A DNA stretch of 64,000 nucleotides from assembly GCA_934644775.1 (NCBI GenBank), contig CAKUDB010000011.1:1118-65117 (forward strand), given 5' to 3'. The notes beneath the pieces are model-generated. The model searched no databases. It had not been told where the DNA came from and worked only from the letters and a program-made list of their open reading frames with translations. Below, in pieces: positions 1,073 through 50,834 of the stretch; positions within the stretch are counted from its first letter, which is position 1; every line of letters starts with the position of its first letter. The translations under genes were made by a program, and so were the position numbers. This stretch comes from an uncultured bacterium. Lineage in GTDB: Bacteria > Vulcanimicrobiota > Xenobia > Xenobiales > Xenobiaceae.

Positions 1073-2767
1073 ATGGATAAACAAAGTAACTATTTTTTCA
1101 TTTCTTCTTTACGAAACTTTACTTGGCGTACTGCTTGCCTTTCTTTAATAGTTTGGGCAACCTTTATGCCTCCTACCATAGCTGAACCTCCCCAAGAGAC
1201 TAAGCCTTCCGAAGCAGCCTCACCTACTGTCAATAGTTCTAAGCCCACAGAAACTAAAACTGAAAAGGCAAATAGCGCTACAGATAAGGCCACCCCAACT
1301 AACCAACAGAAAGATCAAACTAAGAGTCAACAAGCTGAGCAACAACCCCCTTCGCAGGAAGCGGAGCATCTTTACCAGCGCGGTAAAAAGCTTATTAAGC
1401 AAGATGACGTAGCTCAAGGTTTAGATTTGTTGCGTAAAGCTGCCTCTTTGGGCCACGGCGGGGCGGCCTATATGGCTGCCGATTGCCTTTACAATGCCAA
1501 AGGTTGCCCGCGTAATGTTCAAGCTGCTATTACTTTGTATAGAACAGCTGCCGATTTAGGTAATACGGCCGCTCAATTGGCTATAGGTAATATTTATCGC
1601 TTCGGTAACGGTATTAACAAAAATTTTGGCCAAGCTATAGCTTTTTTATCCAAAGCAGCCGGCCTTGGTGATCCTAGAGCTAAAAATGCTTTAGCCGAAA
1701 TGATCGCTGCCGGTCAGGGTACAGACAAAGATTATCAAAAGGCTTTTAAGCTTTTTAGTGAAGCTGCTCAAGCCGGTAATACTGACGCTATGGTCAATTT
1801 AGGTGACTTATATGCTTTAGGTCACGGCGTCAAACAAGATCACCTTAAAGCTGTACAGTGGTATAAAAAAGCGGCTGCCCAAAATAATGGCCGAGCCTAT
1901 TATAGGTTGGGTTACTGCTCAGAAGCTGGTTTAGGGCTAAAGCAAAACCGCTCTCAAGCTATTAAAGATTACGATAAAGCTGGCCACTTAGGTTATCCTT
2001 TAGGTTGGACACGTATAGGCAGGCTTTACGATCTCGGTTTAGGTGTTAAAGCCAACTTTGAGCAAGCTTTAAAGTATTACCAAAAGGCAGCCGATTTTAA
2101 GGAGGGAACCGCTTTAACAGTTTTGGGCCTTTACTACGAGCAAGGACTTAAAGTAAAGCAAAACCCAGCCAAGGCTTTGAAGTATTACATAAAAGCCGCC
2201 GACTTAAAATATGGAGAAGGGGCCAATATGCTAGGCCGCCTTTATACTGAAGGCAAGTTTGTCCCTAAAAATAAGGAGACAGCCGCCGATCTTTTTTACC
2301 AAGCCGGAGAAGATGGCAGCTTAAATGGCTTATGCAATTCAGGCAATTGCTACTACTACGGTATTGCTCGCGGTCAAGATTACCGAACTGCTTGCGAAAA
2401 TTATAAAGTGGCTGCCGATTTACACCATCCTATAGCTTTATATAATTATGCTATTTGTCAAGGGCGCGGTTTCGGTACCAAAAAAGATGCCCCAGGAGCT
2501 ATCGACAATTTTACTAAATCGGCCCAATTAGGCTGTATTCCGGCTATGGATAAGCTTAGTGAAATTTATCAAAAAGGGACTTTAACCGACGCAGATCCCG
2601 CTAAAGCTAAATATTGGCAAGAGCAAGTCCGCTCTCACACCAAGAATCCCGAATTAAAAAGACAGGCTGACGATATGTATTACCACCAAGATAAGCACAA
2701 CTCTCGCCCGCTTGTCTTAAAAGCTTATTACTATGTACCTACCGATATTATAATTTTTAGATATTGA
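1073..2767 (+). CDS. Sel1-like repeat (SLR/TPR-like) protein with N-terminal signal/TM segment
   Basis: 564-aa ORF; about ten tandem ~36-aa Sel1 repeats (e.g. AAYMAADCLYNAKGCPRNVQAAITLYRTAADLGNTAAQLAIGNIYRFGNG); hydrophobic N-terminus. Confidence 0.85.
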   Translation: MDKQSNYFFISSLRNFTWRTACLSLIVWATFMPPTIAEPPQETKPSEAASPTVNSSKPTETKTEKANSATDKATPTNQQKDQTKSQQAEQQPPSQEAEHLYQRGKKLIKQDDVAQGLDLLRKAASLGHGGAAYMAADCLYNAKGCPRNVQAAITLYRTAADLGNTAAQLAIGNIYRFGNGINKNFGQAIAFLSKAAGLGDPRAKNALAEMIAAGQGTDKDYQKAFKLFSEAAQAGNTDAMVNLGDLYALGHGVKQDHLKAVQWYKKAAAQNNGRAYYRLGYCSEAGLGLKQNRSQAIKDYDKAGHLGYPLGWTRIGRLYDLGLGVKANFEQALKYYQKAADFKEGTALTVLGLYYEQGLKVKQNPAKALKYYIKAADLKYGEGANMLGRLYTEGKFVPKNKETAADLFYQAGEDGSLNGLCNSGNCYYYGIARGQDYRTACENYKVAADLHHPIALYNYAICQGRGFGTKKDAPGAIDNFTKSAQLGCIPAMDKLSEIYQKGTLTDADPAKAKYWQEQVRSHTKNPELKRQADDMYYHQDKHNSRPLVLKAYYYVPTDIIIFRY

Positions 2768-12184: not shown

Positions 12185-13306
12185 TTACGATTCAGACGCA
12201 GGTGCAGGAGCGCTCACCGCATTGGGATTAGTAATTAAACGGTTAAATTCTTCGGGACTGTGAGCTTTAGAAAGGCCCTCTTCATAGGTAATTAGTCCTT
12301 GCTGGTAAAGGTTGCGCAGCGACATATCGAAACTCATCATACCGAACTGTCTTCCAGTTTGAATAGCACTGGGAATCTGGTGAGTTTTACCCTCACGAAT
12401 TAAGTTGCGCACAGCTGGAATCATAGGCATAAGCTCCATAGCCATAACGCGACCGCCGCCCTTGGCCTTAGGCAATAGACTTTGGCACATGACGCCTTCT
12501 AAGCATACGGACAACTGCATACGTACTTGCTGTTGCTGGTGGGGAGGGAAAATATCGATAACGCGGTCTACGGTGGAGGCAGCAGAATTGGTGTGCAAAG
12601 TAGCTAACACCAAGTGACCAGTTTCGGCGGCGGAGATAGCGATCTGGGTAGTTTCCAGATCGCGCATTTCACCGATAAGAATCACGTCGGGGTCTTGACG
12701 CAAGACGTGTTTCAAGGCCATAGCAAAACTGTGGGTATCGGCACCAACTTCACGCTGACAAATGACCGAGTTTTTATCCTTATGCAAAAATTCGATAGGG
12801 TCTTCACAAGTGACGATATGGCAGCGACGCGACTCATTGATATGATCGATCATGGCGGCTAAGGTGGTAGATTTACCCGAACCTGTAGGGCCTGTAACTA
12901 AGACTAAACCACGTGGACGCATGGCCAGATCAGCTACCGTTTGCGGCATCTTTAATTCTTCCAACGTAAGAGGGCGCGAAGGGATTACACGCAAAGCTGC
13001 TCCCCAAGTTCCGCGCTGCAGGTAAATATTGACACGGAAACGAGACAGACCGGGGATACTATAAGCTAAGTCCAACTCTTTATCGGCAATAAATTTTGCC
13101 TTCTGTTCGTCAGTCAGAATGCTTTCACAAAGGCGACGCACAGTAGTGGCGTCGAGTATTTCATAAGTAGCGGGAGTTAGTTCTCCGTCGACACGGATCA
13201 TGGGAGCACTGCCAACTTTGATATGTAAATCGGAAGCTCCGCGCTCCACCATAGTAGTTAACAAATCGTCTAATGCAAGTTCATGCGAGTCAAGAAGACT
13301 GTCCAT
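12185..13306 (-). CDS. pilT: type IV pilus twitching-motility (retraction) ATPase PilT, canonical
   Basis: GPTGSGKSTT Walker A, IEDPIEF Asp box, DVILIGEMRDLET Walker B, TLHTNSAAST His box; AAGGTGA RBS 5 nt before ATG 13306. Confidence 0.9.
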   Translation of the reverse strand: MDSLLDSHELALDDLLTTMVERGASDLHIKVGSAPMIRVDGELTPATYEILDATTVRRLCESILTDEQKAKFIADKELDLAYSIPGLSRFRVNIYLQRGTWGAALRVIPSRPLTLEELKMPQTVADLAMRPRGLVLVTGPTGSGKSTTLAAMIDHINESRRCHIVTCEDPIEFLHKDKNSVICQREVGADTHSFAMALKHVLRQDPDVILIGEMRDLETTQIAISAAETGHLVLATLHTNSAASTVDRVIDIFPPHQQQQVRMQLSVCLEGVMCQSLLPKAKGGGRVMAMELMPMIPAVRNLIREGKTHQIPSAIQTGRQFGMMSFDMSLRNLYQQGLITYEEGLSKAHSPEEFNRLITNPNAVSAPAPASES

Positions 13307-13470
13307 CTATTCACCTTTACAGCAAGACTGAAAGCAGCGAACTAACTCCAGTCTCAGATTACAACAAACCGCCCTCCCCTTCGAGAATTTCAATTTTTCG
13401 CCTGCCTGGAAAACCTAAATGGGAAGATAGTTGCAGCAGGTTCGCCTATAAAGGAGACGAAAGGGGCAGC

Positions 13471-14616
13471 GTGTCTGAATTAACCGATTTACAAGAGTTT
13501 TTAAAAAGCGATCTACCGGTTTTAGAATTTAATCAAGCCGACTTTCCCACTTTAGCCTCCCAAAATCGCCAAGAAGAATGGCTTCGTTTGGCAGCCAATA
13601 ATTTGCGCGGCTTCAGTAAGCAACCTTGTGTAGTCAGGCGTCATACTACATATAACGAAGTACAAACTGAAGTCAGGCGCTGGAGTGAAGAGAATTTTCT
13701 ACCTATAAAAGGTCAAGATGAAGCTATTAGCACCCTTTTTATGGGAGAGAGCGCTAGTCTTTACCAAAGTGTTTTAGACGGACAGCGCCTTTTGCGTCAC
13801 GATCCCGGCGATGAAATAGTTGAAGATATTTACATATATAACAAAATCGACAATCCGTTGGGGATCCAATTGGAGTCGGTGCGCTGCCTAGTTATCGATA
13901 GACTATACGAAGTAGGTTATCTCAATTGGCCTTGTTTAAGTACGGCCGAACGGCTGGCTTTAGTAGCTCACAAAAGCGGCACTCTCGAAGCTAAACAAGC
14001 TTTAAATTCACTCTATGAAGGCGACCAAACTTCTACGCTAGAGATGTTTTTGGGCCATACTACTAACGAAAAAGTCAGGCAAGAGATTTGGGAAGCGGGC
14101 AAGCGAGGTAAATTTCGCCTGAACACTAAGGCTATGTTATGGCTTTTAAAACGTCCCGACTGGAATACTAATAGTTGCGTCACTTTTATGGCTCTAGGTA
14201 TAGCGGCAGAACATCCCCAAGAGACGTCTAAGCTTATGCTCCATCCCAACAATTTAATACGCCTTCACTTAGCCGATCTTATCGATAATACAGAAGTATT
14301 GTTAGAATGGTTAAGCTGGGAAGATAATCCAGCCGTGCGCCGTCGCATCTTGTTGAGCTTACAAAGGACGACCTCTCCAGCAGCTCTAGTTTCTAAAATA
14401 AAAAATGCCCAAAAGGTGGAATTGGCAGCGACCAAAGGAGAAAAAGGCCAAGTTAATTACGAAGTTATAGGCTGGGTATTAGCCAATTGGCGTCAGGGCT
14501 TTATAGATGAAAGTATTAAACTGGCCTTACAAGAAGCCACCACCTTGCCCATAGGTGATAATAATCAAAAAAAGATAAAGGATTTAATAAAACAATATGC
14601 TTTTATTAAATCCTAA
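13471..14616 (+). CDS. hypothetical protein (no recognisable domain)
   Basis: Track ORF 13273..14616 overlaps the pilT start on the other strand; GTG at 13471 (in frame) has an AAAGGGG RBS 5 nt upstream and is the more likely start. Codon usage matches neighbours. Confidence 0.5.
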   Translation: MSELTDLQEFLKSDLPVLEFNQADFPTLASQNRQEEWLRLAANNLRGFSKQPCVVRRHTTYNEVQTEVRRWSEENFLPIKGQDEAISTLFMGESASLYQSVLDGQRLLRHDPGDEIVEDIYIYNKIDNPLGIQLESVRCLVIDRLYEVGYLNWPCLSTAERLALVAHKSGTLEAKQALNSLYEGDQTSTLEMFLGHTTNEKVRQEIWEAGKRGKFRLNTKAMLWLLKRPDWNTNSCVTFMALGIAAEHPQETSKLMLHPNNLIRLHLADLIDNTEVLLEWLSWEDNPAVRRRILLSLQRTTSPAALVSKIKNAQKVELAATKGEKGQVNYEVIGWVLANWRQGFIDESIKLALQEATTLPIGDNNQKKIKDLIKQYAFIKS

Positions 14617-14644: not shown

Positions 14645-15415
14645 TTAGTCTAGAGCTCTCTCGACAATTTTAGCTTCTGCTACCTGTTTTACCAACTGGG
14701 AAGAGTGAGAAGCCAAAATTAGGCTGCCGTAGGCGTCTTCCAACTTAGGCATTAAGCTTTGTACTTTCCGAGCTTGCTCAGCTAAAGTTTCTCGATCTTC
14801 ATCGTAGTCAATAAGTTCTTTAGCTCCGTTGATAACTTCTTCTTGAAGATGGCGAGCTTTATCTTCTAGAGAGGTAAAAAGTTTAGTCAATTCTTGCAAA
14901 GAGGCAGCGAATTGCTCACCACTCTCTTTATTTTGCCAAGCAGCCGAGCCTAAAGCGCAGATAATATCTTTACTATTATAGAGATCGTCTCCAGTAGCGA
15001 CAGCCTGGACACGAGCCGTAATATCATTGAAGGAGTTGATACCGCTCATAATAAGTTGGATACCGACTCTCAATCCCAGTTCTTCTTCACTGTTGACAAA
15101 GGCCTCAAATTGCATAAGGCCTAAGTGAATCATATAATACGTATCGTCAATACTGGAAGCTAAAGAATTTAGGTAACTCTTCTCGGCTTCGTTCTCCGGG
15201 ATGGATTTTAACTCATTTCTGACCTGAGCATAAGCCTCTTCTATCGTTTTAAATATATCGTAAGCACCTTGCAAAAAAGCTTCAGGCGTTATTTCTTGCT
15301 TGCTGACTTGAGCAACCAGTTTAAGTAAACCGCTATATTTTGACGTATCAGCTGCACCAGCAGCGGGAGAGGTCAATTCTTTTTCCGACTGTTGCTCGGA
15401 AGCCAAAGAATCCAT
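14645..15415 (-). CDS. hypothetical alpha-helical protein, paralog of 17074..17877
   Basis: 256 aa; shares DDTYYMIHLGLMQFEAF...LRVGIQLI with DDSYYIFKLAVMQLEMY...IRVGLMLI of the downstream paralog. Confidence 0.6.
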   Translation of the reverse strand: MDSLASEQQSEKELTSPAAGAADTSKYSGLLKLVAQVSKQEITPEAFLQGAYDIFKTIEEAYAQVRNELKSIPENEAEKSYLNSLASSIDDTYYMIHLGLMQFEAFVNSEEELGLRVGIQLIMSGINSFNDITARVQAVATGDDLYNSKDIICALGSAAWQNKESGEQFAASLQELTKLFTSLEDKARHLQEEVINGAKELIDYDEDRETLAEQARKVQSLMPKLEDAYGSLILASHSSQLVKQVAEAKIVERALD

Positions 15416-15589
15416 AGTAACTCCTCCAATAGTGTCAGTTAATGGCCCGCCAAGTTTCTATCGACAAGATCTTGGCCATTGTCCTTAATAATATACCCCC
15501 ACTCTACTTTTTTCTTTTCTGCTCTAACAAGGAGGGCCCCTTGTGTCTCGATCTCTAAAATATTCTCATTTAGCCAACGAAACCTGGCC

Positions 15590-15638
15590 ATTAAACCCAA
15601 AGAGAAGGGAGCCGCCTAAGAGCATTCCGGCGGCTCCC
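15590..15638 (-). terminator. rho-independent terminator downstream of 15697..16959
   Basis: Perfect 10-bp stem GGGAGCCGCC (15607-15616)/GGCGGCTCCC (15629-15638); TTCTCTTTGGG follows on minus strand. Confidence 0.6.
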
Positions 15639-15696
15639 TCCTTTTCCTACTATCTGCTTACGCTACCTCTCCACAATATAGTAGCATTTTTTCAGA

Positions 15697-16959
15697 TTAG
15701 CTAAAAAGATCGTAACCGAACTTGGCAATTTCAGCTACAGCAGCTACACCCAAAGCCACAGCAGCTACAGGAGCGCCTACACCAGTCATAGCCGCAACTC
15801 CGGCTACGGTAGTAGCCACACCTGATACTGTGCTTAATGAGCCCTTAACGATCTTATCAGTAGCTTCCTTATCGTTGCTCTTGTCGCCATCATTTTTGGC
15901 TTGTACGCCTTCAACAATATCTTTGACGCCTCCGGCAGTACCAAGAACGCCACCAGCTACGCCCAAGACGGGCACAACCTTGGAAGCAGTGCCGGCTACA
16001 CCACTAAGTTTACTAGCAGCCTTAGTGGCAGTAGAAACGGCGGCACCAGTTTCGGAAGCAGCAGCTACCTTAGTAGCAGCTTTAGTACCGATACTACCTA
16101 TGGTGTTAAGAGCAGTACCAGCAAAGTCGCTGGTGGTCTTAGCATAACTAAGGCCGTCTACTTTTTCGCCATTAAGCAAACTGGCTGTATCACTTACGAA
16201 ACCGATCACATCGGCGGCATCGCCAAACACGCCCATAGTTTTACCGCCAAAATCGCTGAACTTTTCAAGCTTCTTGGCCACATCGGTCGCTTTGTCGGCA
16301 TCTTTAAGAGCATCAGAAGTCTTGCCTGCAGCCTTCTGAACTTTGCCAAACTTATCACGAGCTCCCTCAGTTGTGTCGTAGATGTCACCAACAACTTCAC
16401 CGGCACTCTTGCCGTCTTTCTTGTCTTCAGCTTTTTCGCCTTCAGCCTTTTCGCCTTCGGCCTTTTTGCTACCGACAGCGTGGCTGCCAGTGTTAAGGGC
16501 ATTATTTAAGCTGACAAAATCTTTGGTGCTACCAACTTTGACGGCAGCCTGGTTAAACAAATCGTCAGATAGACTCTTGGAGACTTTTTCGTCGCCGCTG
16601 AAGGCACCCTTAGAAGCAGAATCGTTCTTTAATAAGGTGCTTACCTGATCGGAACCAGCTCCGCTGCGAACAGCCCCCTCAACTTTGGATTTAAGATTTA
16701 CATCGTCTTTAGCTTTGGCAGCTTCATTCTTTTGAGTCTGCTGAGCTTGCTTCTTCTCTTGAGCTTTCTTTTGCTCTTCGGCCTTCTTCTTAGCCTCGGC
16801 CCGTTTGCGTTCTTCGGCTTTTCTTCTTTCTTCGGCCTTTCTAGCTTCTTCAGCCCGACGCTGTTCTTCAGCCCGGCGCTGAGCTTCTATTTGCTGAGCA
16901 TACGCAGATGCCGAACTACTATTTACTCCACTTACCGCCATAATAATCACCCGTCCCAT
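15697..16959 (-). CDS. hypothetical protein with N-terminal highly charged KAEE/RRAEE coiled-coil repeats and Gly/Ala-rich glycine-zipper C-terminal helices
   Basis: AEEQRRAEEARKAEERRKAEERKRAEAKKKAEEQKK in the N-terminus; GVAGGVLGTAGGV...GVAAMTGVGAPVAAVALGVAAVAEIA in the C-terminus. Confidence 0.65.
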   Translation of the reverse strand: MGRVIIMAVSGVNSSSASAYAQQIEAQRRAEEQRRAEEARKAEERRKAEERKRAEAKKKAEEQKKAQEKKQAQQTQKNEAAKAKDDVNLKSKVEGAVRSGAGSDQVSTLLKNDSASKGAFSGDEKVSKSLSDDLFNQAAVKVGSTKDFVSLNNALNTGSHAVGSKKAEGEKAEGEKAEDKKDGKSAGEVVGDIYDTTEGARDKFGKVQKAAGKTSDALKDADKATDVAKKLEKFSDFGGKTMGVFGDAADVIGFVSDTASLLNGEKVDGLSYAKTTSDFAGTALNTIGSIGTKAATKVAAASETGAAVSTATKAASKLSGVAGTASKVVPVLGVAGGVLGTAGGVKDIVEGVQAKNDGDKSNDKEATDKIVKGSLSTVSGVATTVAGVAAMTGVGAPVAAVALGVAAVAEIAKFGYDLFS

Positions 16960-17073
16960 CTGGTCGTAATTGACTTATAAATACCGCAATCGAGCTTATT
17001 TGTCTAGATTTTAGGAGGCCTCTTTGGTCAAGTTAACATTTATTTTACACAAACAGAACTAGCCTTCTTTAGC

Positions 17074-17877
17074 TTAGGGCTCATCAGAGTGGACAGCCAT
17101 TATAGCTTTAACCCAATACTCATTGGCTTTGGTGGAAGCTTCTCGCGTATCTAAGAGCGCTTCGTAATTTTGACCGTTAAATTTTTGAGCTTGTTCTAAA
17201 GCTTCATGGAAAGAGCGACAACCTTCAGTTAAACATTCGCTAAGTACATCGTCGGCACTACATATGGCGTCAAAATAATTATCGGCGTCTAAAGTTCCAT
17301 TGACATACGCATTGATAGAAGGAACTAAAAGATCTTTATTGTCGATAACATCGGGATCTTGTTGATTTTTAGCATAAGTTAAAAGCCAGCTGAGCCCCTG
17401 ATAAGCTTGTTTTATAAGCATAAGGCCTACTCTTATGGGTTGCAAATTGCCAGGAGCATACATTTCCAACTGCATAACAGCCAACTTAAAAATGTAATAA
17501 GAGTCGTCGCGACGCATCTTTAAAGCTTTTACAGCCTTAGGATCCCCTGTTTCTTCTATAAAAGCACCTACTTGAGCATATAATTCTTCAAAATCTTCCA
17601 CTACCGGAGCCAGCGAAAACTTAAACTTGTCACTATCGACCGCTGTATCCACAGCTTTATACAAGCAAGCGCTTAGAGAACGCAGACAATCTTTAGGGTC
17701 GAGGTAAGCAAAATCGCCTCCCTCACTTCGGCGGGCCGCCGCTGGAAGCTCCCAATTACTCTGACTACCGAAAAAACCTTGTACGGCTAAAGGGCGTCCG
17801 GTGCCACATTCTTGACAGATAGATTCGCCAATACTATTGCGGGAACCACAGACAAAACAGATCCAATCGGTGCTCAT
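17074..17877 (-). CDS. hypothetical protein: N-terminal zinc ribbon (CxxC-x10-CxxC) plus helical domain paralogous to 14645..15415
   Basis: MSTDWICFVCGSRNSIGESICQECG at the N-terminus, then the shared paralog motifs. Confidence 0.65.
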   Translation of the reverse strand: MSTDWICFVCGSRNSIGESICQECGTGRPLAVQGFFGSQSNWELPAAARRSEGGDFAYLDPKDCLRSLSACLYKAVDTAVDSDKFKFSLAPVVEDFEELYAQVGAFIEETGDPKAVKALKMRRDDSYYIFKLAVMQLEMYAPGNLQPIRVGLMLIKQAYQGLSWLLTYAKNQQDPDVIDNKDLLVPSINAYVNGTLDADNYFDAICSADDVLSECLTEGCRSFHEALEQAQKFNGQNYEALLDTREASTKANEYWVKAIMAVHSDEP

Positions 17878-25043: not shown

Positions 25044-25733
25044 CTAACTTTGCTTATAAACGAACTTACTATCATCTATAGAAAATTCGTCGCCATCTTT
25101 TAAGTATACCGGCGTAGTAAGTAATTCTCCGTTACAAAAAGTGCCGTTGGCACTACCTAAATCTTCCAGAACGACTCCGCTGGGATCGACTGATAGTTTG
25201 GCATGACGAGAGGAGACGAAGTTGCCAGTTAAACAAACGTCACACTCAGAAGAGCGTCCAAATATCAAAGTCTGTTCTACAGGTAAACTCTTCGCTGCCA
25301 AATAAGGACTATCGACTAGCAAATGGCTACCCGAAGGTGACGAAGCTGCCGCCGATTTTTTGACAGCCGCCAAGAATTGCTCACGCGAACTACCTACAGC
25401 TGGCATATCAGCCACAGTTGGAGCATAACATAAATCGAAATTAGTCTTCTCTGCCGAAGCCGACCTTACCGCCCCTAAGCTACCAGAAGCAGCTGAATGG
25501 AAGCTTTTCCTACTTTTGCCCTCGGATCTTTCTCCCTCTTGGGCAGAATCTGGTTCCGACTGTCCGGGACGAGAGAGACTATCTTTCTTTTCGGAAGGAG
25601 GCTCGGCTTTAGGCATTCCTTGATAGATAATCCGCAAAGAGACAACCACAAAAGCACAAATCAGCCCTAAAAGCGGAAATTTTAGAAAGTAGAGAATCCC
25701 CTCGGAAATGCCTTCTTTCAAACCGACCTCCAT
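25044..25733 (-). CDS. FHA domain-containing membrane protein (FhaB/FipA-like)
   Basis: N-terminal TM helix and Ser/Pro-rich linker, with a C-terminal FHA domain (LIFGRSSECDVCLTGNFVSSRHAKLSVDPSGVVLEDLGSANGTFCNG); position directly upstream of RodA-PBP mirrors the fhaB-rodA-pbpA arrangement. Confidence 0.75.
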   Translation of the reverse strand: MEVGLKEGISEGILYFLKFPLLGLICAFVVVSLRIIYQGMPKAEPPSEKKDSLSRPGQSEPDSAQEGERSEGKSRKSFHSAASGSLGAVRSASAEKTNFDLCYAPTVADMPAVGSSREQFLAAVKKSAAASSPSGSHLLVDSPYLAAKSLPVEQTLIFGRSSECDVCLTGNFVSSRHAKLSVDPSGVVLEDLGSANGTFCNGELLTTPVYLKDGDEFSIDDSKFVYKQS

Positions 25734-33042: not shown

Positions 33043-34674
33043 ATGGCTTGGAGTTCTGGTCTGCAACTTAGAGTAGTTGAAGGCAATGACGAAGGTAGGG
33101 TTGTCCTGCTCAACTCGCCGGAAATAACCTTAGGAAGAGCAGTTGAAACTAGCGAAAGTTCTCCCGGCTGGGTTCTCTTTTCTGAACCTACCGTGTCCAG
33201 AATCCATGCCTTGTTGCAATGGGATGACGAAAGGCAGTGTTATGTTTTACAGCACCGCTCTCGCACCAATCCTACTTTAGTTCGTGACGTACCCGTCGAC
33301 GGCTATCCGCTCCATCTCAACGAAAAAGTCAATTTAGGATTGTTGGGCTTTATTCTAGAGCCGGCCGAAACGCGCACCGGCAAGTTGGGCGACGCTGTCA
33401 AGACTCCACAAAGTCAGGGTGTATCCCCAGGAGTGTTTGACGCCCTAAACGACTACGCTTCCAAGAGCAACAACCGGCAAGACAGAGAAAATATGGCTGG
33501 TATGGCCGGTTTAATAGATGGCGGTGGGCAAGACGAAGAAAAATTCGTTATGAGCGTAATCCAGGGGCCTGATAAAGGGACGAATTATCCTCTCCGCGAG
33601 CCCGTATTAGTTATAGGTCGCCTCCAAGGGCCCGCCGATCCGCGAGCCAGCGCCGGCGTATTGTTGCACGATACCTCCGTTCCCAGCGAGCAAGCGCTCC
33701 TAGTTTGGCAAGATCGGGCCGCCACCTATGGCATATTGCAATCAGATAGCAGCAGCCAGGCCACCCGTATTAGACGCATGTCCAACGGTATGCCTCGCGA
33801 AATTATCGTGCGCAGCGATATTCCCACCGTACTTAACGAGCGGGACGTTATTATGATCGGTCGCACGGCTATGGTACTTTCCAGCAACCAAAGGTCGAGT
33901 AGCGGCTACGATTTAGGCCAAACTAGTATGCACATGGCTGGCCAACAGCCCCAACAACCTTTCCACGAATTTGATGTAGACGATAACCAGCTCCATCGTT
34001 CTCCTTTGCGCAGTTGGCGAGACAATAATCCTCCTCGTCAACCTTACTCTGAGCCAGCCCCCCAGTATCAACAGCCGCCTCAACAGCCTTATCAGCCACG
34101 CCCAGAGTACGGAGGCTATCCTGCAAGCCAAGAAGCCCCAGCTTATGGTGATTACCAGCCTCGACAGCGCCGCGAAGCTTATCCTCCTGATCCTAACAGC
34201 TACCCAGGACAGCCTCCTTATGGACAGCCCGAGCCCGCCCCCTACCGCGAGCAGCCGCCTTACAACTATGAGCCAGCCCCGGACTATGCTCCTGCGCCAG
34301 CCCCCACTCCGGCCAATGCTCCTCGCCCGGCGGGTGCCCCCCATCCAGCAGGAACTCCACGTCCAGCTGGTGCTCCCCGTCCAGCTGGAGCTCCTCGTCC
34401 AGCAGGCGCTCCACGCCCAGCAGGCGCTCCTCGTCCTGCCGGGGCTCCTCGTCCTGCCGGGGCTCCACGCCCTGCAGGCGCTCCTCGTCCTGCCGGGGCT
34501 CCACGCCCTACAGGCGCTCCACGCCCAGCAGGCGCTCCCCGTCCAGCAGGCGCTCCCCGTCCAGCAGGCGCTCCCCGTCCAGCCGGAGCTCCACGCCCTG
34601 CCGGAGCTCCTCGCCCAGCGGGTGCTCCCCGTCCAGCTGCTCCCTCAGAGACAGAAGGCGATAGTTATCGATAA
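33043..34674 (+). CDS. FHA domain protein (two FHA-like domains) with C-terminal Pro-rich (APRPAG)n tandem repeat tail
   Basis: First FHA: ITLGRAVE...VSRIHALLQWDDERQCYVLQHRSRTNPTLV. Second: LVIGRLQG...; about 18 consecutive APRPAG hexads; GAGAGG RBS. Confidence 0.75.
   Translation: MAWSSGLQLRVVEGNDEGRVVLLNSPEITLGRAVETSESSPGWVLFSEPTVSRIHALLQWDDERQCYVLQHRSRTNPTLVRDVPVDGYPLHLNEKVNLGLLGFILEPAETRTGKLGDAVKTPQSQGVSPGVFDALNDYASKSNNRQDRENMAGMAGLIDGGGQDEEKFVMSVIQGPDKGTNYPLREPVLVIGRLQGPADPRASAGVLLHDTSVPSEQALLVWQDRAATYGILQSDSSSQATRIRRMSNGMPREIIVRSDIPTVLNERDVIMIGRTAMVLSSNQRSSSGYDLGQTSMHMAGQQPQQPFHEFDVDDNQLHRSPLRSWRDNNPPRQPYSEPAPQYQQPPQQPYQPRPEYGGYPASQEAPAYGDYQPRQRREAYPPDPNSYPGQPPYGQPEPAPYREQPPYNYEPAPDYAPAPAPTPANAPRPAGAPHPAGTPRPAGAPRPAGAPRPAGAPRPAGAPRPAGAPRPAGAPRPAGAPRPAGAPRPTGAPRPAGAPRPAGAPRPAGAPRPAGAPRPAGAPRPAGAPRPAAPSETEGDSYR
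34318..34640 (+). repeat. 18-nt tandem DNA repeat (~18 copies) encoding (APRPAG)n
   Basis: Repeated gctcctcgtcctgccggg / gctccacgcccagcaggc units, lying within the coding region. Confidence 0.9.
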
Positions 34675-34763
34675 ATACTACCCGCCGACCGAAGGGCCAC
34701 TCCAAGCCTAATAAAGGCTCGGTCGGCTGTGACAGTTTTTTATTTTGCATAGGTATAGCAACG

Positions 34764-37286
34764 GTGGAAAATCAGAATAGCCCTCAGCAACAAGCAGCCG
34801 ATCTTCGCATGATGTTGGATAGCGAGCCTCCTAAGCAGCGCTCTTCGCGTCGCAGCTCCAGAGGGACGACCCTAAGTGATATAGACACTATGTCCTACGA
34901 CGAACTAGTGGCTTATATCTCTGATTCTAATTCTGATTTTGCCGACGAAGCTACCGGATTAGACGGGCTGCGCGAAGAAGAAGAGCGGGCCAAGCGAGCT
35001 GTGCCCTACTCTTTTGCCTCTTTAGGTAAGAAGCAACCCGCCGATACTTCGGCCTCCAACTCGCATTTGACCGACTTATCTAGTTTGCGAACTATCACTC
35101 CCGATCCTCAAGCCTATTCCCAGCCCGAATATTATCAGCCAAACGACCCTCAAGACTCAGCTCAGGGAGCAAGTGGCCTTACAAATGGCCTTCTGGAAAG
35201 TCCTAGCGACAACACCGACTTTTCTGTAGCTTCAAACAACAATATCTTCGACGCTAAAGACTACAATAGCCAAGATTTTAAGCGCGACAGCTTGGTTCGC
35301 GAAGGCTTAGGCCACGACGGTTTCAATCATGAAAGCTACAACGGTGAAAGCTTAGGTCATGACGGTTTTGACCACGATGGTTTCGACCATGAAGGCTTCG
35401 ATCACGAAGGCTTCGACCGCGACGGCTACGACCGCGAAGGCTTCGATCACGAAGGCTTCGACCGCGAAGGCTTCGATCACGAAGGCTTCGACCGCGAAGG
35501 CTTCGATCACGAAGGCTTCGACCGCGAAGGCTTCGATCACGAAGGCTTCGACCGCGACGGCTACGATCACGACAACTACGACCGCGAAGGCTACGACTGG
35601 GAAGGCTTTGATAGCGAAGGCTACGATCGCGACGGTTTTGATCGCGACAACTACGACCGCGAGGGTTACGACTGGGAAGGTTTCAACCAATATGGCCTCA
35701 ATCGTCAAGGCTTCGACCGTGACGGCTTCGATGAGGAAGGCTTTGATAGCGAAGGCTACGATCACGACGGTTTTGACCGCGACAACTACGACCGCGAGGG
35801 TTACGACTGGGAAGGTTTCAACCAATATGGCCTAGATCGTCAGGGCTTCAACCGTCACGGCTACGATGCGGAAGGTTACGATCGTGAAGGCTTCAATAGC
35901 GAAGGCTTTGATCGTGACGGCTACGACCGCGAAGGTTTCGACCAGTATAATTATGACCGCGAAGGTTACGATTGGGAGGGATACGATTGCGAAGGCTACG
36001 ATTACGGCGGTTTTGATCGAGACGGCTACGATAAAGAAGGTTATACCCGTCAAGATTGGGAGGCTGCGGGCTACAAATTTGGGCCACGCGGCGAGTTTAT
36101 TTTATCGGAAAGCGAGACCTCCGAGACAGAAGCCGCAGCCAATGAGCCTATTGGCCAAGAAGAGGCAGCCCCTCAATTAAATAAAGATTCAACTACTAGG
36201 CCAGAGCCAAGTCCCGAAGTTCAAGCCGAGTCAGCCCCAACTCCCGTTGAAGATGACGAAAAGGTTGAAGATATTGAAGATGATAGAGTCGTTGGAGCTG
36301 AGCCAGACCACGAAGCCAACGAAGAGGATCTATCCGACCAAGAGCTTCCCGAGTATAATTTTGCCGCTGCTCCTCCGGCCAGGGCCAATGAAGTTAAGCC
36401 CCAGGCTGAGCCAGAATCGCTTAGTTTTAGTCAGGAAGGAGCCTACAGAGCCGAACTGCCGGTAGCAGCCGAAGCCCCTCACGAAGCCCCTCAACAAGTG
36501 AACGCCGAGCCTCAAGTTCAGACCTCTTCGGCAAGTGAGTTGCCACCAGAAGCCTCTATAGCTTCAGCTCAGCCTAGGGCAGACGTGCCTTTATTTGAGC
36601 CGGAGGGCAAGTTAGGCAATATGACCAGCCCTTGGAGCTACGAATGCGACTACGCTATCGATTATATTAGTGGCAGTCGTCGCGGCCAAAGGATCGCTTT
36701 ACTAGCTTCTGAGCTTGGCGATACGCGGTCTTTTACTGTTGGCTCAAGTGGCGAGCGCGTCAACGATATTGAAGTAGATGAACCTACTATAGCTAACGAT
36801 CAAGCCTTACTGCGTTACAATAACGGTCGCTTTACTTTGATCAATTTCCAAGAAGATATTAAGATCAATAGGCGGATTATCACTTGCGGCGAGCAAGTCA
36901 ATTTAATGACCGGTGATGAGATTAGCTTAGGAAACACCACTTTAGTTTTTAGTGAGCGTTGTATCAGTGAAGCTTTGGCCGAATATTCTATCGATGTGGT
37001 GGAAGGTGCCCCAACCGATCTAGGCAAGTCTTTCCCTCTAACTAAGCAGCGCTCTTCTATAGGGCGGGATCGCAATTCGGATATTCCCCTTACCGATCAA
37101 GAGATCAGCCGCCAACATTGTACCCTTACTTTCCGGGCCGGTAAGTTCTTCTTGCAACATCGCTCCGATACCAACCCAACCTTTATTAACGGCGTTTCTG
37201 TTCCCGTCGGCGGTGAGCGCCAGATAACTACCGAGGATAAGATTCAAATTTCCAGCCGTACCGTTTTGCAACTGGTAAAACATTGA
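34764..37286 (+). CDS. large FHA domain protein: disordered N-terminus, ~45 tandem acidic/aromatic pentad repeats (E-G-F/Y-D-x), C-terminal tandem FHA domains
   Basis: GTG start; runs of EGFDHEGFDREGFDHEGFDRDGYD...EGYDWEGF; C-terminal FHA: SIGRDRNSDIPLTDQEISRQHCTLTFRAGKFFLQHRSDTNPTFINGVSV. Confidence 0.75.
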   Translation: MENQNSPQQQAADLRMMLDSEPPKQRSSRRSSRGTTLSDIDTMSYDELVAYISDSNSDFADEATGLDGLREEEERAKRAVPYSFASLGKKQPADTSASNSHLTDLSSLRTITPDPQAYSQPEYYQPNDPQDSAQGASGLTNGLLESPSDNTDFSVASNNNIFDAKDYNSQDFKRDSLVREGLGHDGFNHESYNGESLGHDGFDHDGFDHEGFDHEGFDRDGYDREGFDHEGFDREGFDHEGFDREGFDHEGFDREGFDHEGFDRDGYDHDNYDREGYDWEGFDSEGYDRDGFDRDNYDREGYDWEGFNQYGLNRQGFDRDGFDEEGFDSEGYDHDGFDRDNYDREGYDWEGFNQYGLDRQGFNRHGYDAEGYDREGFNSEGFDRDGYDREGFDQYNYDREGYDWEGYDCEGYDYGGFDRDGYDKEGYTRQDWEAAGYKFGPRGEFILSESETSETEAAANEPIGQEEAAPQLNKDSTTRPEPSPEVQAESAPTPVEDDEKVEDIEDDRVVGAEPDHEANEEDLSDQELPEYNFAAAPPARANEVKPQAEPESLSFSQEGAYRAELPVAAEAPHEAPQQVNAEPQVQTSSASELPPEASIASAQPRADVPLFEPEGKLGNMTSPWSYECDYAIDYISGSRRGQRIALLASELGDTRSFTVGSSGERVNDIEVDEPTIANDQALLRYNNGRFTLINFQEDIKINRRIITCGEQVNLMTGDEISLGNTTLVFSERCISEALAEYSIDVVEGAPTDLGKSFPLTKQRSSIGRDRNSDIPLTDQEISRQHCTLTFRAGKFFLQHRSDTNPTFINGVSVPVGGERQITTEDKIQISSRTVLQLVKH
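35293..36060 (+). repeat. 15/30-nt tandem DNA repeat block encoding the pentad (GFDxE/GYDxE) repeats
   Basis: Many near-identical gaaggcttcgatcacgaaggcttcgaccgc units; the antisense ORFs in the track here are repeat artefacts. Confidence 0.9.
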
Positions 37287-50720: not shown

Positions 50721-50834
50721 ATTAAAAACTAAACTCCTCAAACCATGTTGTTCGTCGCCGTCAGCGAAAAAAAATTGCCGCCAAACTTCTACAACCTCTC
50801 GGCAATTCCTTTGCTAAGTGGGCAGTCCAGCTAG

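What the first reader, a model, noticed from the sequence alone, without database searches (positions are those of the whole stretch)
14645..17877. Paralogous helical proteins (one with N-terminal zinc ribbon) flank a KAEE-repeat coiled-coil / glycine-zipper membrane-active-looking protein
The 256-aa and 267-aa proteins share a conserved core (DDTYYMIHLGLMQFEAF...LRVGIQLI versus DDSYYIFKLAVMQLEMY...IRVGLMLI). The second adds a CxxC-x10-CxxC ribbon. Between them lies a 420-aa protein with a highly charged RRAEE/KAEE repeat N-terminus and Gly/Ala-rich amphipathic C-terminal helices (GVAGGVLGTAGGV..., GxxxG zippers) reminiscent of pore-forming or membrane-remodelling proteins. A terminator follows the middle gene (15590-15638). 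None of the three has an obvious known domain. The duplicated partner plus membrane-active-like effector layout resembles toxin/immunity or membrane-stress (PspA/LiaH-like) modules, but the family appears uncharacterised.
Basis: seen in the sequence. Interest (0 to 1): 0.55.

Follow-up and report, generated by a model that had tools for sequence, protein, structure and literature searches.

The report
Unknown helical-protein and membrane-hairpin gene module
Three neighbouring genes in an uncultured gut bacterium (Xenobia, phylum Eremiobacterota) belong to two protein families with no known relatives, an acidic cytoplasmic zinc-finger helical protein and a membrane protein with a proline-kinked hydrophobic hairpin, and the two stay side by side in many distant relatives, so they very probably work together at the cell membrane although their function is still unknown.

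Summary
Three minus-strand genes, C (17074-17877), B (15697-16959) and A (14645-15415), exist as described. A and C are true paralogues (hhalign probability 96.8%, E 2.7e-10, 188 columns). C has a RanBP2/NZF-type zinc finger. B has an ER/K-rich N-terminal helix and a Gly/Ala-rich hydrophobic C-terminus, and a strong terminator hairpin follows it.

In about 12 lineages (GC 0.43-0.71), every B-type gene lies beside an A/C-type gene, in varying order and orientation (C-B-A, C-A-B, C-B-B-A, B-A, C-B tandem, C/B convergent). No other neighbour is shared. The ancestral core is the C+B pair. The A paralogue and B's charged N-terminus are additions in the gut Xenobia lineages.

Neither family matches Pfam, NCBIfam, PHROGs, PADLOC, PDB sequences or PDB and viral folds, and neither is found on plasmids or phages. 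The PspA/LiaH and toxin/immunity readings get no support from homology.

My best reading is that B is a hairpin-anchored membrane protein and that C and A are its acidic cytoplasmic binding partners, acting as a holdase or regulator. The function is unproven. All named source genomes are Eremiobacterota, UBP9 or unclassified MAGs, apart from two labelled Burkholderiales. Interest is moderate.

The parts
17074..17877 (-). Gene C: 267-aa acidic (net -16) cytoplasmic protein with an N-terminal zinc finger and a seven-helix domain. It belongs to the ancestral partner family of the module.
   Evidence: ORF. AGGAG ribosome-binding site about 10 nt upstream of the ATG. Orthologues at 46-80% identity. 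Exhaustive profile search found about 45 full-length relatives. AF2 model mean pLDDT 71.
17794..17868 (-). RanBP2/NZF-type zinc finger of C (residues 4-28, W-x-C-x2-C-x3-N-x6-C-x2-C)
   Evidence: PDB sequence profile hit to a Nup153 zinc finger, E 0.006. Foldseek superposition on Nup153, TRABID and ZRANB2 fingers at rmsd 0.4-0.7 A over 24-26 residues, probability 0.97-1.0. Pfam Zn_ribbon_RanBP, DZR or NZF matched, below cut-off, in 12-25 of 40 family members.
17092..17697 (-). Helical domain of C (residues 61-262), shared with A. It has no known fold relative.
   Evidence: AF2 helices 61-78, 82-109, 113-138, 146-173, 185-192, 198-231 and 239-262. Best PDB fold match E about 1, TM about 0.2. 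Best BFVD match E 0.13. hhalign to the A family 96.8%.
15697..16959 (-). Gene B: 420-aa protein (probably 414 aa, starting at 16941) with a charged N-terminal helix, a low-complexity middle, and a C-terminal hydrophobic helix plus proline-kinked hairpin
   Evidence: ORF. Orthologues at 59-61% identity. Divergent family members in L005, L012, L018, L021, L025-L031 and L033.
16705..16902 (-). ER/K-rich N-terminal helix of B (residues about 20-85), probably a single alpha-helix stalk and not a coiled coil
   Evidence: 50% E+R+K with 2 large hydrophobic residues in 72 aa. It is the only confident part of the AF2 model (10-residue blocks from about residue 21 to 70 score pLDDT 77-88), inside one continuous predicted helix, 10-92 in 414-aa numbering. 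The N-terminal motif A-Q-R-x-A-E-E is conserved in 8 B proteins.
15712..15999 (-). Conserved membrane domain of B (residues 321-416): a Gly-zipper helix followed by a 36-aa Gly/Ala-rich hydrophobic hairpin with a central proline (GVGAPVAAVALG)
   Evidence: Kyte-Doolittle 19-residue window peaks of 1.56 and 1.99. All 15 B-family members have a 30-48-aa hydrophobic stretch with a central Pro, which in L018B381 lies just past the called segment. Pro is invariant in 13 of 13 aligned sequences. This is the only part of B conserved across all lineages (Bc HMM E 1e-8 to 1e-42).
15593..15638 (-). Intrinsic-terminator-like hairpin and T-rich tail after B
   Evidence: deltaG -30.2 kcal/mol, z -4.2. An equivalent hairpin plus T-run follows the B gene in L001, L002, L012 (both B genes), L018 and L021.
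14645..15415 (-). Gene A: 256-aa acidic (net -20) paralogue of C without the zinc finger, probably transcribed separately (281-nt gap after the terminator, own GGAGG site)
   Evidence: ORF. Ribosome-binding site. Orthologues at 62-99% identity. A-like members in L005, L012 (two), L018 and L021.
13273..14616 (+). Conserved convergent neighbour of unknown function. Orthologues start near residue 67 of this ORF. Its membership of the module is uncertain.
   Evidence: 38-42% identical orthologues sit in the same position in L012 and L018, and called genes of matching length sit there in L001 and L002. No Pfam or NCBIfam hit. It is absent from the group-1 and group-2 loci.

Best explanation
This is a chromosomal, vertically inherited module known so far almost only from Xenobia/Eremiobacterota-type genomes.

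B is an integral or monotopic cytoplasmic-membrane protein. It is held in the membrane by a Gly-zipper helix and a proline-kinked Gly/Ala-rich helical hairpin. It has no signal peptide, so its charged ER/K helix and low-complexity, repeat-bearing regions are inferred to lie in the cytoplasm.

C is a strongly acidic cytoplasmic protein made of a zinc finger and a helical bundle. It is B's dedicated binding partner. Because the hairpin domain is the only part of B conserved wherever C-like genes occur, C most likely recognises that domain or its juxtamembrane flanks. It would either keep B soluble or inactive before insertion (a holdase or gatekeeper) or assemble on it at the membrane.

A is a zinc-finger-less duplicate of C. 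It arose in the gut Xenobia lineages together with B's ER/K N-terminus and probably acts as a second partner, either as a heterodimer with C or by binding the basic N-terminal helix.

Shown: the paralogy, the domain anatomy, the adjacency across lineages and the absence of known homologues. Inferred: membrane insertion and topology, physical binding, and the biological role (membrane organisation or maintenance versus controlled permeabilisation).
For: - **Adjacency.** C-B-A in the window, L001, L002 and L005. Two modules, C-B'-A and C-A-B, in L012. C-B-B-A in L018-L020. B-A in L021 while C sits elsewhere in the same genome. C-B tandem in L022-L026, and convergent in L027, L029-L031 and L033.
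- **Nothing else is shared.** Among the distant loci, GC 0.51-0.71, only these two genes recur.
- **Conserved B signature.** A hydrophobic 30-48-aa stretch with a central Pro that is invariant in 13 of 13 aligned sequences.
- **Cytosolic partners.** The A/C family is uniformly acidic (median net charge -21, n=35), has no hydrophobic segment, and carries a Cys4 zinc finger, which is typical of cytoplasmic proteins. Group-1 B proteins are basic, +4 to +18.
- **Binding role, not catalysis.** The A/C family has no conserved catalytic-type residues. Only one Gly is invariant across 40 members.
- **Not mobile.** Neither family is found on plasmids, phages or viral contigs.
Against: - No direct evidence of interaction.
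- The B model is low confidence outside the N-terminal helix (mean pLDDT 47), so the hairpin and the topology rest on hydropathy alone.
- The first hydrophobic helix is borderline (KD 1.56).
- In one genome (GCA_017444165.1) C is not next to B, and three short contigs show non-B neighbours on the one side that is visible (L007, L009, L010).
- Adjacency among the Xenobia loci is partly explained by shared synteny.
- The A/ER-K-helix correlation may reflect a single evolutionary event.
Confidence: 0.5

Rival explanations
1. Toxin/antitoxin-like or abortive-infection module. B is a membrane-permeabilising effector (holin- or colicin-like hydrophobic hairpin). C and A are cytoplasmic neutralisers or sensors that release it on a trigger.
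For: - Gly/Ala-rich hydrophobic hairpins embedded in amphipathic helices are typical of pore-formers (established knowledge).
- Every B gene has an adjacent A/C gene, and C lies upstream of B in the tandem arrangements.
- B's non-hairpin regions vary greatly in length, 191-747 aa.
- The module is duplicated in L012.
Against: - No meaningful PADLOC hit.
- Absent from plasmids, phages and viral contigs.
- It sits in a conserved housekeeping synteny block (TrkA, Na+/H+ exchanger ... PilT, PilT, SerRS) across several genera.
- The genes are convergent in 5 loci, and a terminator separates B from A, which is atypical for antitoxin-toxin operons.
- Known immunity proteins to pore-forming toxins are membrane proteins, whereas A and C are soluble.
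Confidence: 0.2
2. Secreted translocator or effector with dedicated chaperones. This would be analogous to type III class II chaperone and translocator pairs (IpgC-IpaB, SycD-YopB) or to type VII substrates with helical partner proteins.
For: - Acidic all-helical cytosolic proteins are encoded beside a protein that has a long N-terminal helix and a hydrophobic hairpin.
- B has no signal peptide, as expected for a substrate of a specialised secretion system (read from the sequence).
Against: - No secretion-system genes lie next to the pair in any locus. The nearby PilT ATPases occur only in the Xenobia synteny block and not in group-1 or group-2 loci.
- No significant TPR, WXG100, LXG or PE/PPE hit. 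The only WXG100 match is E 0.037, far below the cut-off.
- Foldseek shows no chaperone or EspB/PPE-like fold.
- A zinc finger would be unusual in such chaperones.
Confidence: 0.1
3. PspA/LiaH-LiaI-like envelope-stress module. Soluble helical proteins would oligomerise on a small membrane anchor to seal damaged membrane.
For: Only a generic resemblance: soluble helical proteins beside a small-residue-rich membrane anchor. There are also weak SHOCT/DUF1707-like matches in the first helix of 6 of 40 members. From my own recollection, not checked here, DUF1707 occurs in some actinobacterial LiaF-like proteins.
Against: - No PspA_IM30 or Snf7 hit in any of 40 members.
- No PspA, Vipp1 or ESCRT-III structure appears among the Foldseek PDB matches.
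- The predicted helices are about 27 residues long in a compact bundle, not the long ESCRT-III hairpin.
Confidence: 0.05
4. There is no functional link. The genes are neighbours only through inherited synteny in a narrow clade.
For: The first six contexts (window, L001, L002, L012, L018 and partly L005) share flanking synteny. In one genome C is separate from B-A.
Against: - The pair recurs in unrelated neighbourhoods with different orientation and GC of 0.51-0.71, and only these two genes are shared.
- Order is shuffled within L012 while membership is kept.
Confidence: 0.05

Closest known systems
Type III secretion class II chaperone and hydrophobic translocator pairs (IpgC-IpaB, SycD-YopB/YopD)
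   Same: A small acidic all-helical cytoplasmic protein is encoded next to a protein that combines an N-terminal long helix with a hydrophobic helical hairpin. The chaperone keeps the hydrophobic partner soluble.
   Different: There is no TPR signature or fold match, no injectisome genes nearby, and the partner has a zinc finger. The families are unrelated by sequence.
PspA-PspB/C and LiaH-LiaI membrane-stress systems
   Same: A soluble helical protein is paired with a small membrane anchor rich in small residues.
   Different: No PspA_IM30 homology in 40 family members, no ESCRT-III-like fold, and the anchor families are unrelated.
Pore-forming colicin / Bcl-2-type domains and glycine-zipper toxins (e.g. 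Caulobacter CdzC/CdzD, PMC5380434)
   Same: Ala/Gly-rich hydrophobic helices with small-xxx-small packing motifs, preceded by amphipathic helices.
   Different: No Colicin or glycine-zipper Pfam hit. No export system or membrane immunity gene is adjacent. The locus is chromosomal and vertically inherited, and the hairpin has an invariant central proline.
Proline-knot or wedge hairpin anchors with amphipathic 11-mer repeats (oleosin, caveolin, reticulon; apolipoprotein-, perilipin- and synuclein-type repeats)
   Same: A hydrophobic stretch of about 36 residues with an invariant central Pro. Some B members have 11-residue repeats, KDVGGKVVDGV in L018 and FVGDKVSDGV... in group 1, with a weak Apolipoprotein match at E 0.039.
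   Different: Resemblance of pattern only. There is no homology, the known examples are eukaryotic, and the window's own B lacks clear 11-mer repeats.
RanBP2/NZF zinc fingers (Nup153, TRABID, ZRANB2, Npl4)
   Same: The exact W-x-C-x2-C-x3-N-x6-C-x2-C pattern, and 0.4-0.7 A superposition.
   Different: The two residues after the second Cys are Gly-Ser, where Npl4-type ubiquitin-binding NZF fingers have Thr-Phe (the NZF motif is my own recollection, not tested here). The bacterial ligand is unknown, and the finger is attached to a new helical domain.

Membership tests
PspA/IM30/Vipp1 (ESCRT-III superfamily) | Sequence match to PF04012 PspA_IM30 or to Snf7 | tested here: not met
   No such hit for A or C at E<=1, nor in any of the 40 family members.
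PspA/IM30/Vipp1 (ESCRT-III superfamily) | Long alpha1-alpha2 helical hairpin fold | tested here: not met
   The AF2 model has seven helices, most of 24-34 residues. No PspA, Vipp1 or ESCRT-III chain appears among the Foldseek PDB matches. The model is of moderate confidence (pLDDT 71).
RanBP2/NZF-type zinc finger (PF00641) | W-x-C-x2-C-x3-N-x6-C-x2-C pattern and zinc-ribbon fold | tested here: met
   The pattern is present at residues 5-24 of C. Nup153 zinc-finger profile hit at E 0.006. Foldseek rmsd 0.4-0.7 A. PF00641 is hit, below its cut-off, in 15 of 40 members, best E 2e-5.
Ubiquitin-binding NZF subclass | Thr-Phe dipeptide after the second Cys, plus a hydrophobic residue after the fourth Cys | tested here: not met
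   C has C10-G-S-R-N. The definition of the motif comes from my own knowledge of Npl4/TAB2 NZF fingers.
Type III secretion class II chaperones (TPR-like) | TPR repeats and adjacency to injectisome or translocator genes | tested here: not met
   No TPR family hit for A or C. Foldseek lists a TPR protein only at E 4.4, TM 0.17. No T3SS genes are in any locus.
WXG100 / type VII substrates | Helix-turn-helix of about 100 aa with a WxG motif, or LXG domain | tested here: not met
   The only hit is WXG100 at E 0.037, 14.7 bits against a cut-off of 27.3, in A residues 152-205. It does not recur in the family.
Pore-forming colicin domain / glycine-zipper Pfam families | Sequence match to the Pfam Colicin family or to the Gly-zipper_Omp, Gly-zipper_YMGG or Gly-zipper_OmpA families | tested here: not met
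   No such hit for the window's B, for 8 divergent B members or for 13 hairpin domains. The PDB sequence profile finds nothing relevant.
Known anti-phage defence systems (PADLOC) | Match to a PADLOC protein model | tested here: not met
   The only hit is a ZorA match at E 5e-4 to a coiled segment of A. B and C have none.
Integral membrane protein (for B) | Hydrophobic helices able to span or enter the bilayer | tested here: inconclusive
   KD19 peaks of 1.6-2.2 in all 15 members. No dedicated topology predictor was available, and the AF2 model has low confidence there.

The most novel reading that the evidence does not exclude
The pair is a previously unrecognised membrane system specific to one phylum. 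A proline-kinked hairpin protein shapes or gates the cytoplasmic membrane and is controlled by a new class of zinc-finger helical-bundle protein. In effect this would be a bacterial counterpart of wedge-hairpin plus soluble-regulator systems, or a new chromosomal pore/gatekeeper pair, with no homologue in any characterised organism.
Probability: 0.3. Interest if true: 0.7.

Novelty: categorically new. Interest (0 to 1): 0.5.

Why it matters
Eremiobacterota (Vulcanimicrobiota) have a single cultured representative (PMC9758169), and the gut-associated Xenobia have none, so their cell biology is known only from genomes. This work defines two protein families that no current library covers. It also shows by gene-neighbourhood conservation that they form a unit, which gives a concrete, testable handle on membrane biology specific to this phylum.

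The families can be turned into HMMs for annotation. The pair is small enough for heterologous expression, interaction assays and structure work.

If B is a regulated pore or membrane-shaping protein, the C family would be a new type of soluble regulator built on a RanBP2-type zinc finger, a module better known from eukaryotes.

Without experiments it remains a well-delimited 'conserved hypothetical' module, hence the moderate score.

Tried and rejected
- **Library scans (Pfam, NCBIfam, PHROGs, PADLOC) of A, B, C and the convergent neighbour.** Nothing reached a cut-off. The ZorA, WXG100, DUF4047 and phrog hits are isolated, sub-threshold, fall on coiled segments, and do not recur across the family.
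- **PDB sequence profiles for both families.** They found only zinc fingers or noise.
- **Foldseek with the C model.** No match to the helical domain in the PDB or in BFVD. The top 'translin' hit has TM 0.2 and is meaningless.
- **AF2 model of B.** Too poor (mean pLDDT 47) to use for fold search, so I did not run one.
- **The search for related loci with the whole-family alignments.** It failed because they have no conserved 7-10-column stretch, so I used subgroup alignments instead.
- **Look-ups of most distant representatives.** They returned contigs too short to judge neighbours.
- **Plasmid, phage and IMG/VR searches.** All negative.
- **Literature searches.** No description of these proteins.
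- **The 'glycine zipper count' as evidence.** Rejected because it equals the compositional expectation.
- **Linkage to the adjacent PilT genes.** Considered and set aside because it is confined to the Xenobia synteny block.


Full report
**1. What is in the window**

- C and A have good Shine-Dalgarno sequences. B's better start is probably M7 at 16941, which is where the L001 orthologue begins.
- A strong hairpin lies 59 nt downstream of B's stop codon: 10-bp GC-rich stems at 15638-15629 and 15616-15607, deltaG -30.2 kcal/mol, z -4.2, followed by a T-rich tail. The consensus scan missed it because of its 12-nt loop.
- A hairpin of the same kind followed by a T-run sits after the B gene in L001, L002, L018, L021 and both B copies of L012. 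B's transcript end is therefore a conserved feature, and A, 281 nt further on, probably has its own promoter.

**2. Organism and neighbourhood**

The closest named relatives are MAGs of Candidatus Bruticola, in class Xenobia of phylum Vulcanimicrobiota/Eremiobacterota. On the minus strand the local gene order is: FHA protein, FtsW/RodA, PBP, class V aminotransferase, TrkA-type protein, Na+/H+ exchanger, C, B, A, a convergent 447-aa ORF, PilT, PilT, SerRS. Two other Bruticola genomes share this order.

**3. The paralogy is real**

BLASTP between A and C gives 30% identity over 69 aa, E 1e-6. Profiles built from 9 A-type and 8 C-type sequences align over 188 columns with probability 96.8% and E 2.7e-10. 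The homology therefore covers the whole helical domain, down to the C-terminal '(A/V)-H-S' motif. In the joint alignment 14 columns are invariant across both families.

**4. Anatomy of C and A**

- *Zinc finger.* C's N-terminus fits the RanBP2/NZF pattern W-x-C-x2-C-x3-N-x6-C-x2-C. The family profile hits a Nup153 zinc finger in the PDB at E 0.006. The modelled finger superposes on Nup153, TRABID and ZRANB2 fingers at 0.4-0.7 A.
- *Helical domain.* The rest of C is modelled with a 14-sequence alignment (mean pLDDT 71; 10-residue blocks in the core mostly score 75-90) as seven helices. It has no meaningful structural neighbour in the PDB (best E about 1, TM about 0.2) or in BFVD.
- *Family scans.* Scanning all 40 family members against Pfam returns only zinc-ribbon families repeatedly (DZR 25 of 40, RanBP 15 of 40, NZF 12 of 40), plus a weak SHOCT/DUF1707-like motif in the first helix in 6 of 40.
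- *Character.* The family is uniformly acidic (median net charge -21, n=35) with no hydrophobic segment. It has no conserved polar residues of the kind that suggest catalysis: only one Gly is invariant across the 40 sequences. It looks like a cytoplasmic binding protein.

**5. Anatomy of B**

- *N-terminus.* The first 70-90 residues are 50% E+R+K with only two large hydrophobic residues. AF2 predicts one long helix, and this is the only confident part of the model (10-residue blocks from about residue 21 to 70 score pLDDT 77-88, against a mean of 47). That fits an ER/K-type single alpha-helix better than a coiled coil.
- *Middle.* It is low-complexity and poorly conserved.
- *C-terminus.* The last 100 residues or so hold a hydrophobic helix with a GxxxGxxxG motif (residues 336/340/344) and a 36-residue Gly/Ala-rich stretch with a central Pro (…MTGVGAPVAAVALGVAAVAE…), with KD19 peaks of 1.56 and 1.99.
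- *Caveat on the zipper count.* The overall count of 21 small-xxx-small-xxx-small motifs is about what the composition predicts (my estimate is about 20), so it is not evidence in itself.

**6. The families extend beyond Bruticola, and the genes travel together**

The word-indexed search found only close relatives. The exhaustive profile search found 76 hits. About 45 are full-length, and the remainder are multi-zinc-finger proteins that match only the ribbon.

Genomic contexts:

| Lineage or locus | Arrangement |
|---|---|
| L005 (divergent) | C-B-A behind a different upstream gene (DUF362); identities to the window are C 46-47%, B 29%, A 42% |
| L012/L013 | Two modules: C-like, a short 191-aa B with only the hairpin domain, then A-like; followed by C-like, A-like, then a 599-aa B |
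| L018-L020 | C-like, B (747 aa), B (381 aa), A-like |
| GCA_017444165.1 | B (522 aa) then A-like on one contig; C-like alone on another |
| Group 1 (about 20-25% identical to the window's C in the family alignment; GC 0.51-0.71; record titles Eremiobacteraeota, UBP9, RUG807, 'bacterium', two Burkholderiales) | A 246-294-aa protein matching my B-hairpin HMM (E 1e-8 to 1e-13; motif GVPVAAVALG) is the immediate neighbour in 6 of 6 loci with enough flank: tandem in two, convergent in four. No A-like gene is present. |
| Group 2 (L033, 460-kb contig) | A convergent B-type gene 33 nt away (E 3.8e-14) |

Clustering all the neighbours of the distant loci shows that only these two genes are shared.

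Across 15 B-family proteins the hydrophobic stretch with a central Pro is always present. In a 13-sequence alignment of the domain, the Pro, two Gly and one Ala are invariant.

Contigs that could not be judged because they end within a few hundred bases are L007/L008, L009, L010, L011, L028, L032, L034 and L035.

**7. What this means**

The conserved unit is one zinc-finger helical protein plus one hairpin protein.

The A paralogue lacks the zinc finger. Every lineage that has an A-like gene also has a B protein with the ER/K N-terminus (the window, L001, L002, L005, L012, L018, L021), and lineages with neither feature have only the C+B pair. That correlation may reflect a single evolutionary event. 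Where C is displaced, A stays next to B (L021).

Two points suggest where C binds and where the interaction happens:
- Only the hairpin domain of B is conserved wherever C-like proteins occur.
- C and A are acidic cytosolic proteins, whereas group-1 B proteins are basic.

The most economical mechanism is that C binds the hairpin domain or its flanks on the cytoplasmic side. It would act either as a holdase or gatekeeper before insertion, or as a subunit recruited to the membrane. A would be a second, derived partner. This is inference. No interaction test was possible with the tools at hand.

**8. Alternatives**

- *Toxin/antitoxin or defence.* This cannot be excluded and is the main rival. 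Five observations weigh against it:
  - The module is absent from plasmids, phages and viral contigs.
  - It has no PADLOC match of substance.
  - It sits in a housekeeping synteny block across genera.
  - It is convergent in five loci.
  - It is split by a terminator.
- *Secreted translocator plus chaperones.* No secretion genes and no TPR, WXG or LXG signature support this.
- *PspA/LiaH.* This fails both the sequence and the fold membership tests.
- *Chance synteny.* This is refuted.

**9. Novelty and score**

Neither family is covered by Pfam, NCBIfam, PHROGs, PADLOC or PDB sequences, and the helical domain of C has no fold relative in the PDB or in BFVD. The literature search found no description. 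By homology the module lies outside every known kind of system. By architecture it only generically resembles chaperone-translocator, PspA-anchor or pore-regulator pairs.

I rate it categorically new, in the sense of two unclassified families that are linked. Interest is moderate (0.5), because the function is not established, the known distribution is narrow, and such 'conserved hypothetical' pairs are not rare in uncultured phyla.

Noticed in passing
window 13273-14616 (+): A 447-aa ORF with no family hit. Orthologues at 38-42% identity in L012 and L018 begin at about residue 67 of this ORF, so the true start is probably internal. Called genes of matching length occupy the same position in L001 and L002. 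The gene always sits convergent to the module and just before the two PilT genes in Xenobia genomes. It may be a further partner or related to type IV pili.
   Followed up: partly
window 33043-37286 (+): Two adjacent FHA-domain proteins (543 and 840 aa) lie in a stretch with GC 0.57, against about 0.45 elsewhere in the window. A third FHA protein (25044-25733) precedes FtsW/RodA and a PBP, an arrangement that recalls (my own recollection) the actinobacterial fhaA-rodA-pbpA cluster.
   Followed up: no
A/C family, first helix (window A residues about 29-50; C residues about 61-90): A weak SHOCT/DUF1707-like motif (L-x-x-L...G-x-I-x-P-E-x-F) is matched in 6 of 40 family members, best E 0.002, below the cut-off.
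   Followed up: partly
Hits P0044-P0092 (not in the window): About 30 metagenomic proteins carry 3-10 tandem RanBP2-type zinc fingers. This shows that this 'eukaryote-like' finger is common as arrays in uncultured prokaryotes.
   Followed up: no
L018 11032-13275; L029 6921-7802 and L030 3361-4242 (minus strand): Some B-family members carry 11-residue amphipathic-looking repeats, KDVGGKVVDGV or FVGDKVSDGVxAVKxG, with a weak Apolipoprotein match at E 0.039. The window's own B lacks clear repeats.
   Followed up: partly
L033 7709-8095 (minus strand): Next to the group-2 pair is a small His/Asp-rich protein that ends in double zinc ribbons. It matches the A/C profile only through the ribbon (E 2.5e-4).
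   Followed up: no
L028 and L030 (record titles): Two MAGs labelled Burkholderiales (L030 has GC 0.71) carry C-like genes, and L030's B protein closely resembles those of the UBP9 MAGs, with an identical hairpin core (L028's contig ends before any neighbour). This probably reflects mis-binning or mislabelling, or otherwise a transfer event.
   Followed up: no
L022-L025, upstream of the pair: A TerD, PRTase_2/TRSP, StiP/PELOTA and C-C_Bond_Lyase cluster lies on the opposite strand, separated from the group-1 pair by a TatD gene. It is not shared with the other loci, so it is probably unrelated.
   Followed up: partly
window 48387-50741 (-) and 1073-2767 (+): A 784-aa protein with a Roadblock/LC7 domain and a 564-aa Sel1-repeat protein. 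Neither was examined further.
   Followed up: no
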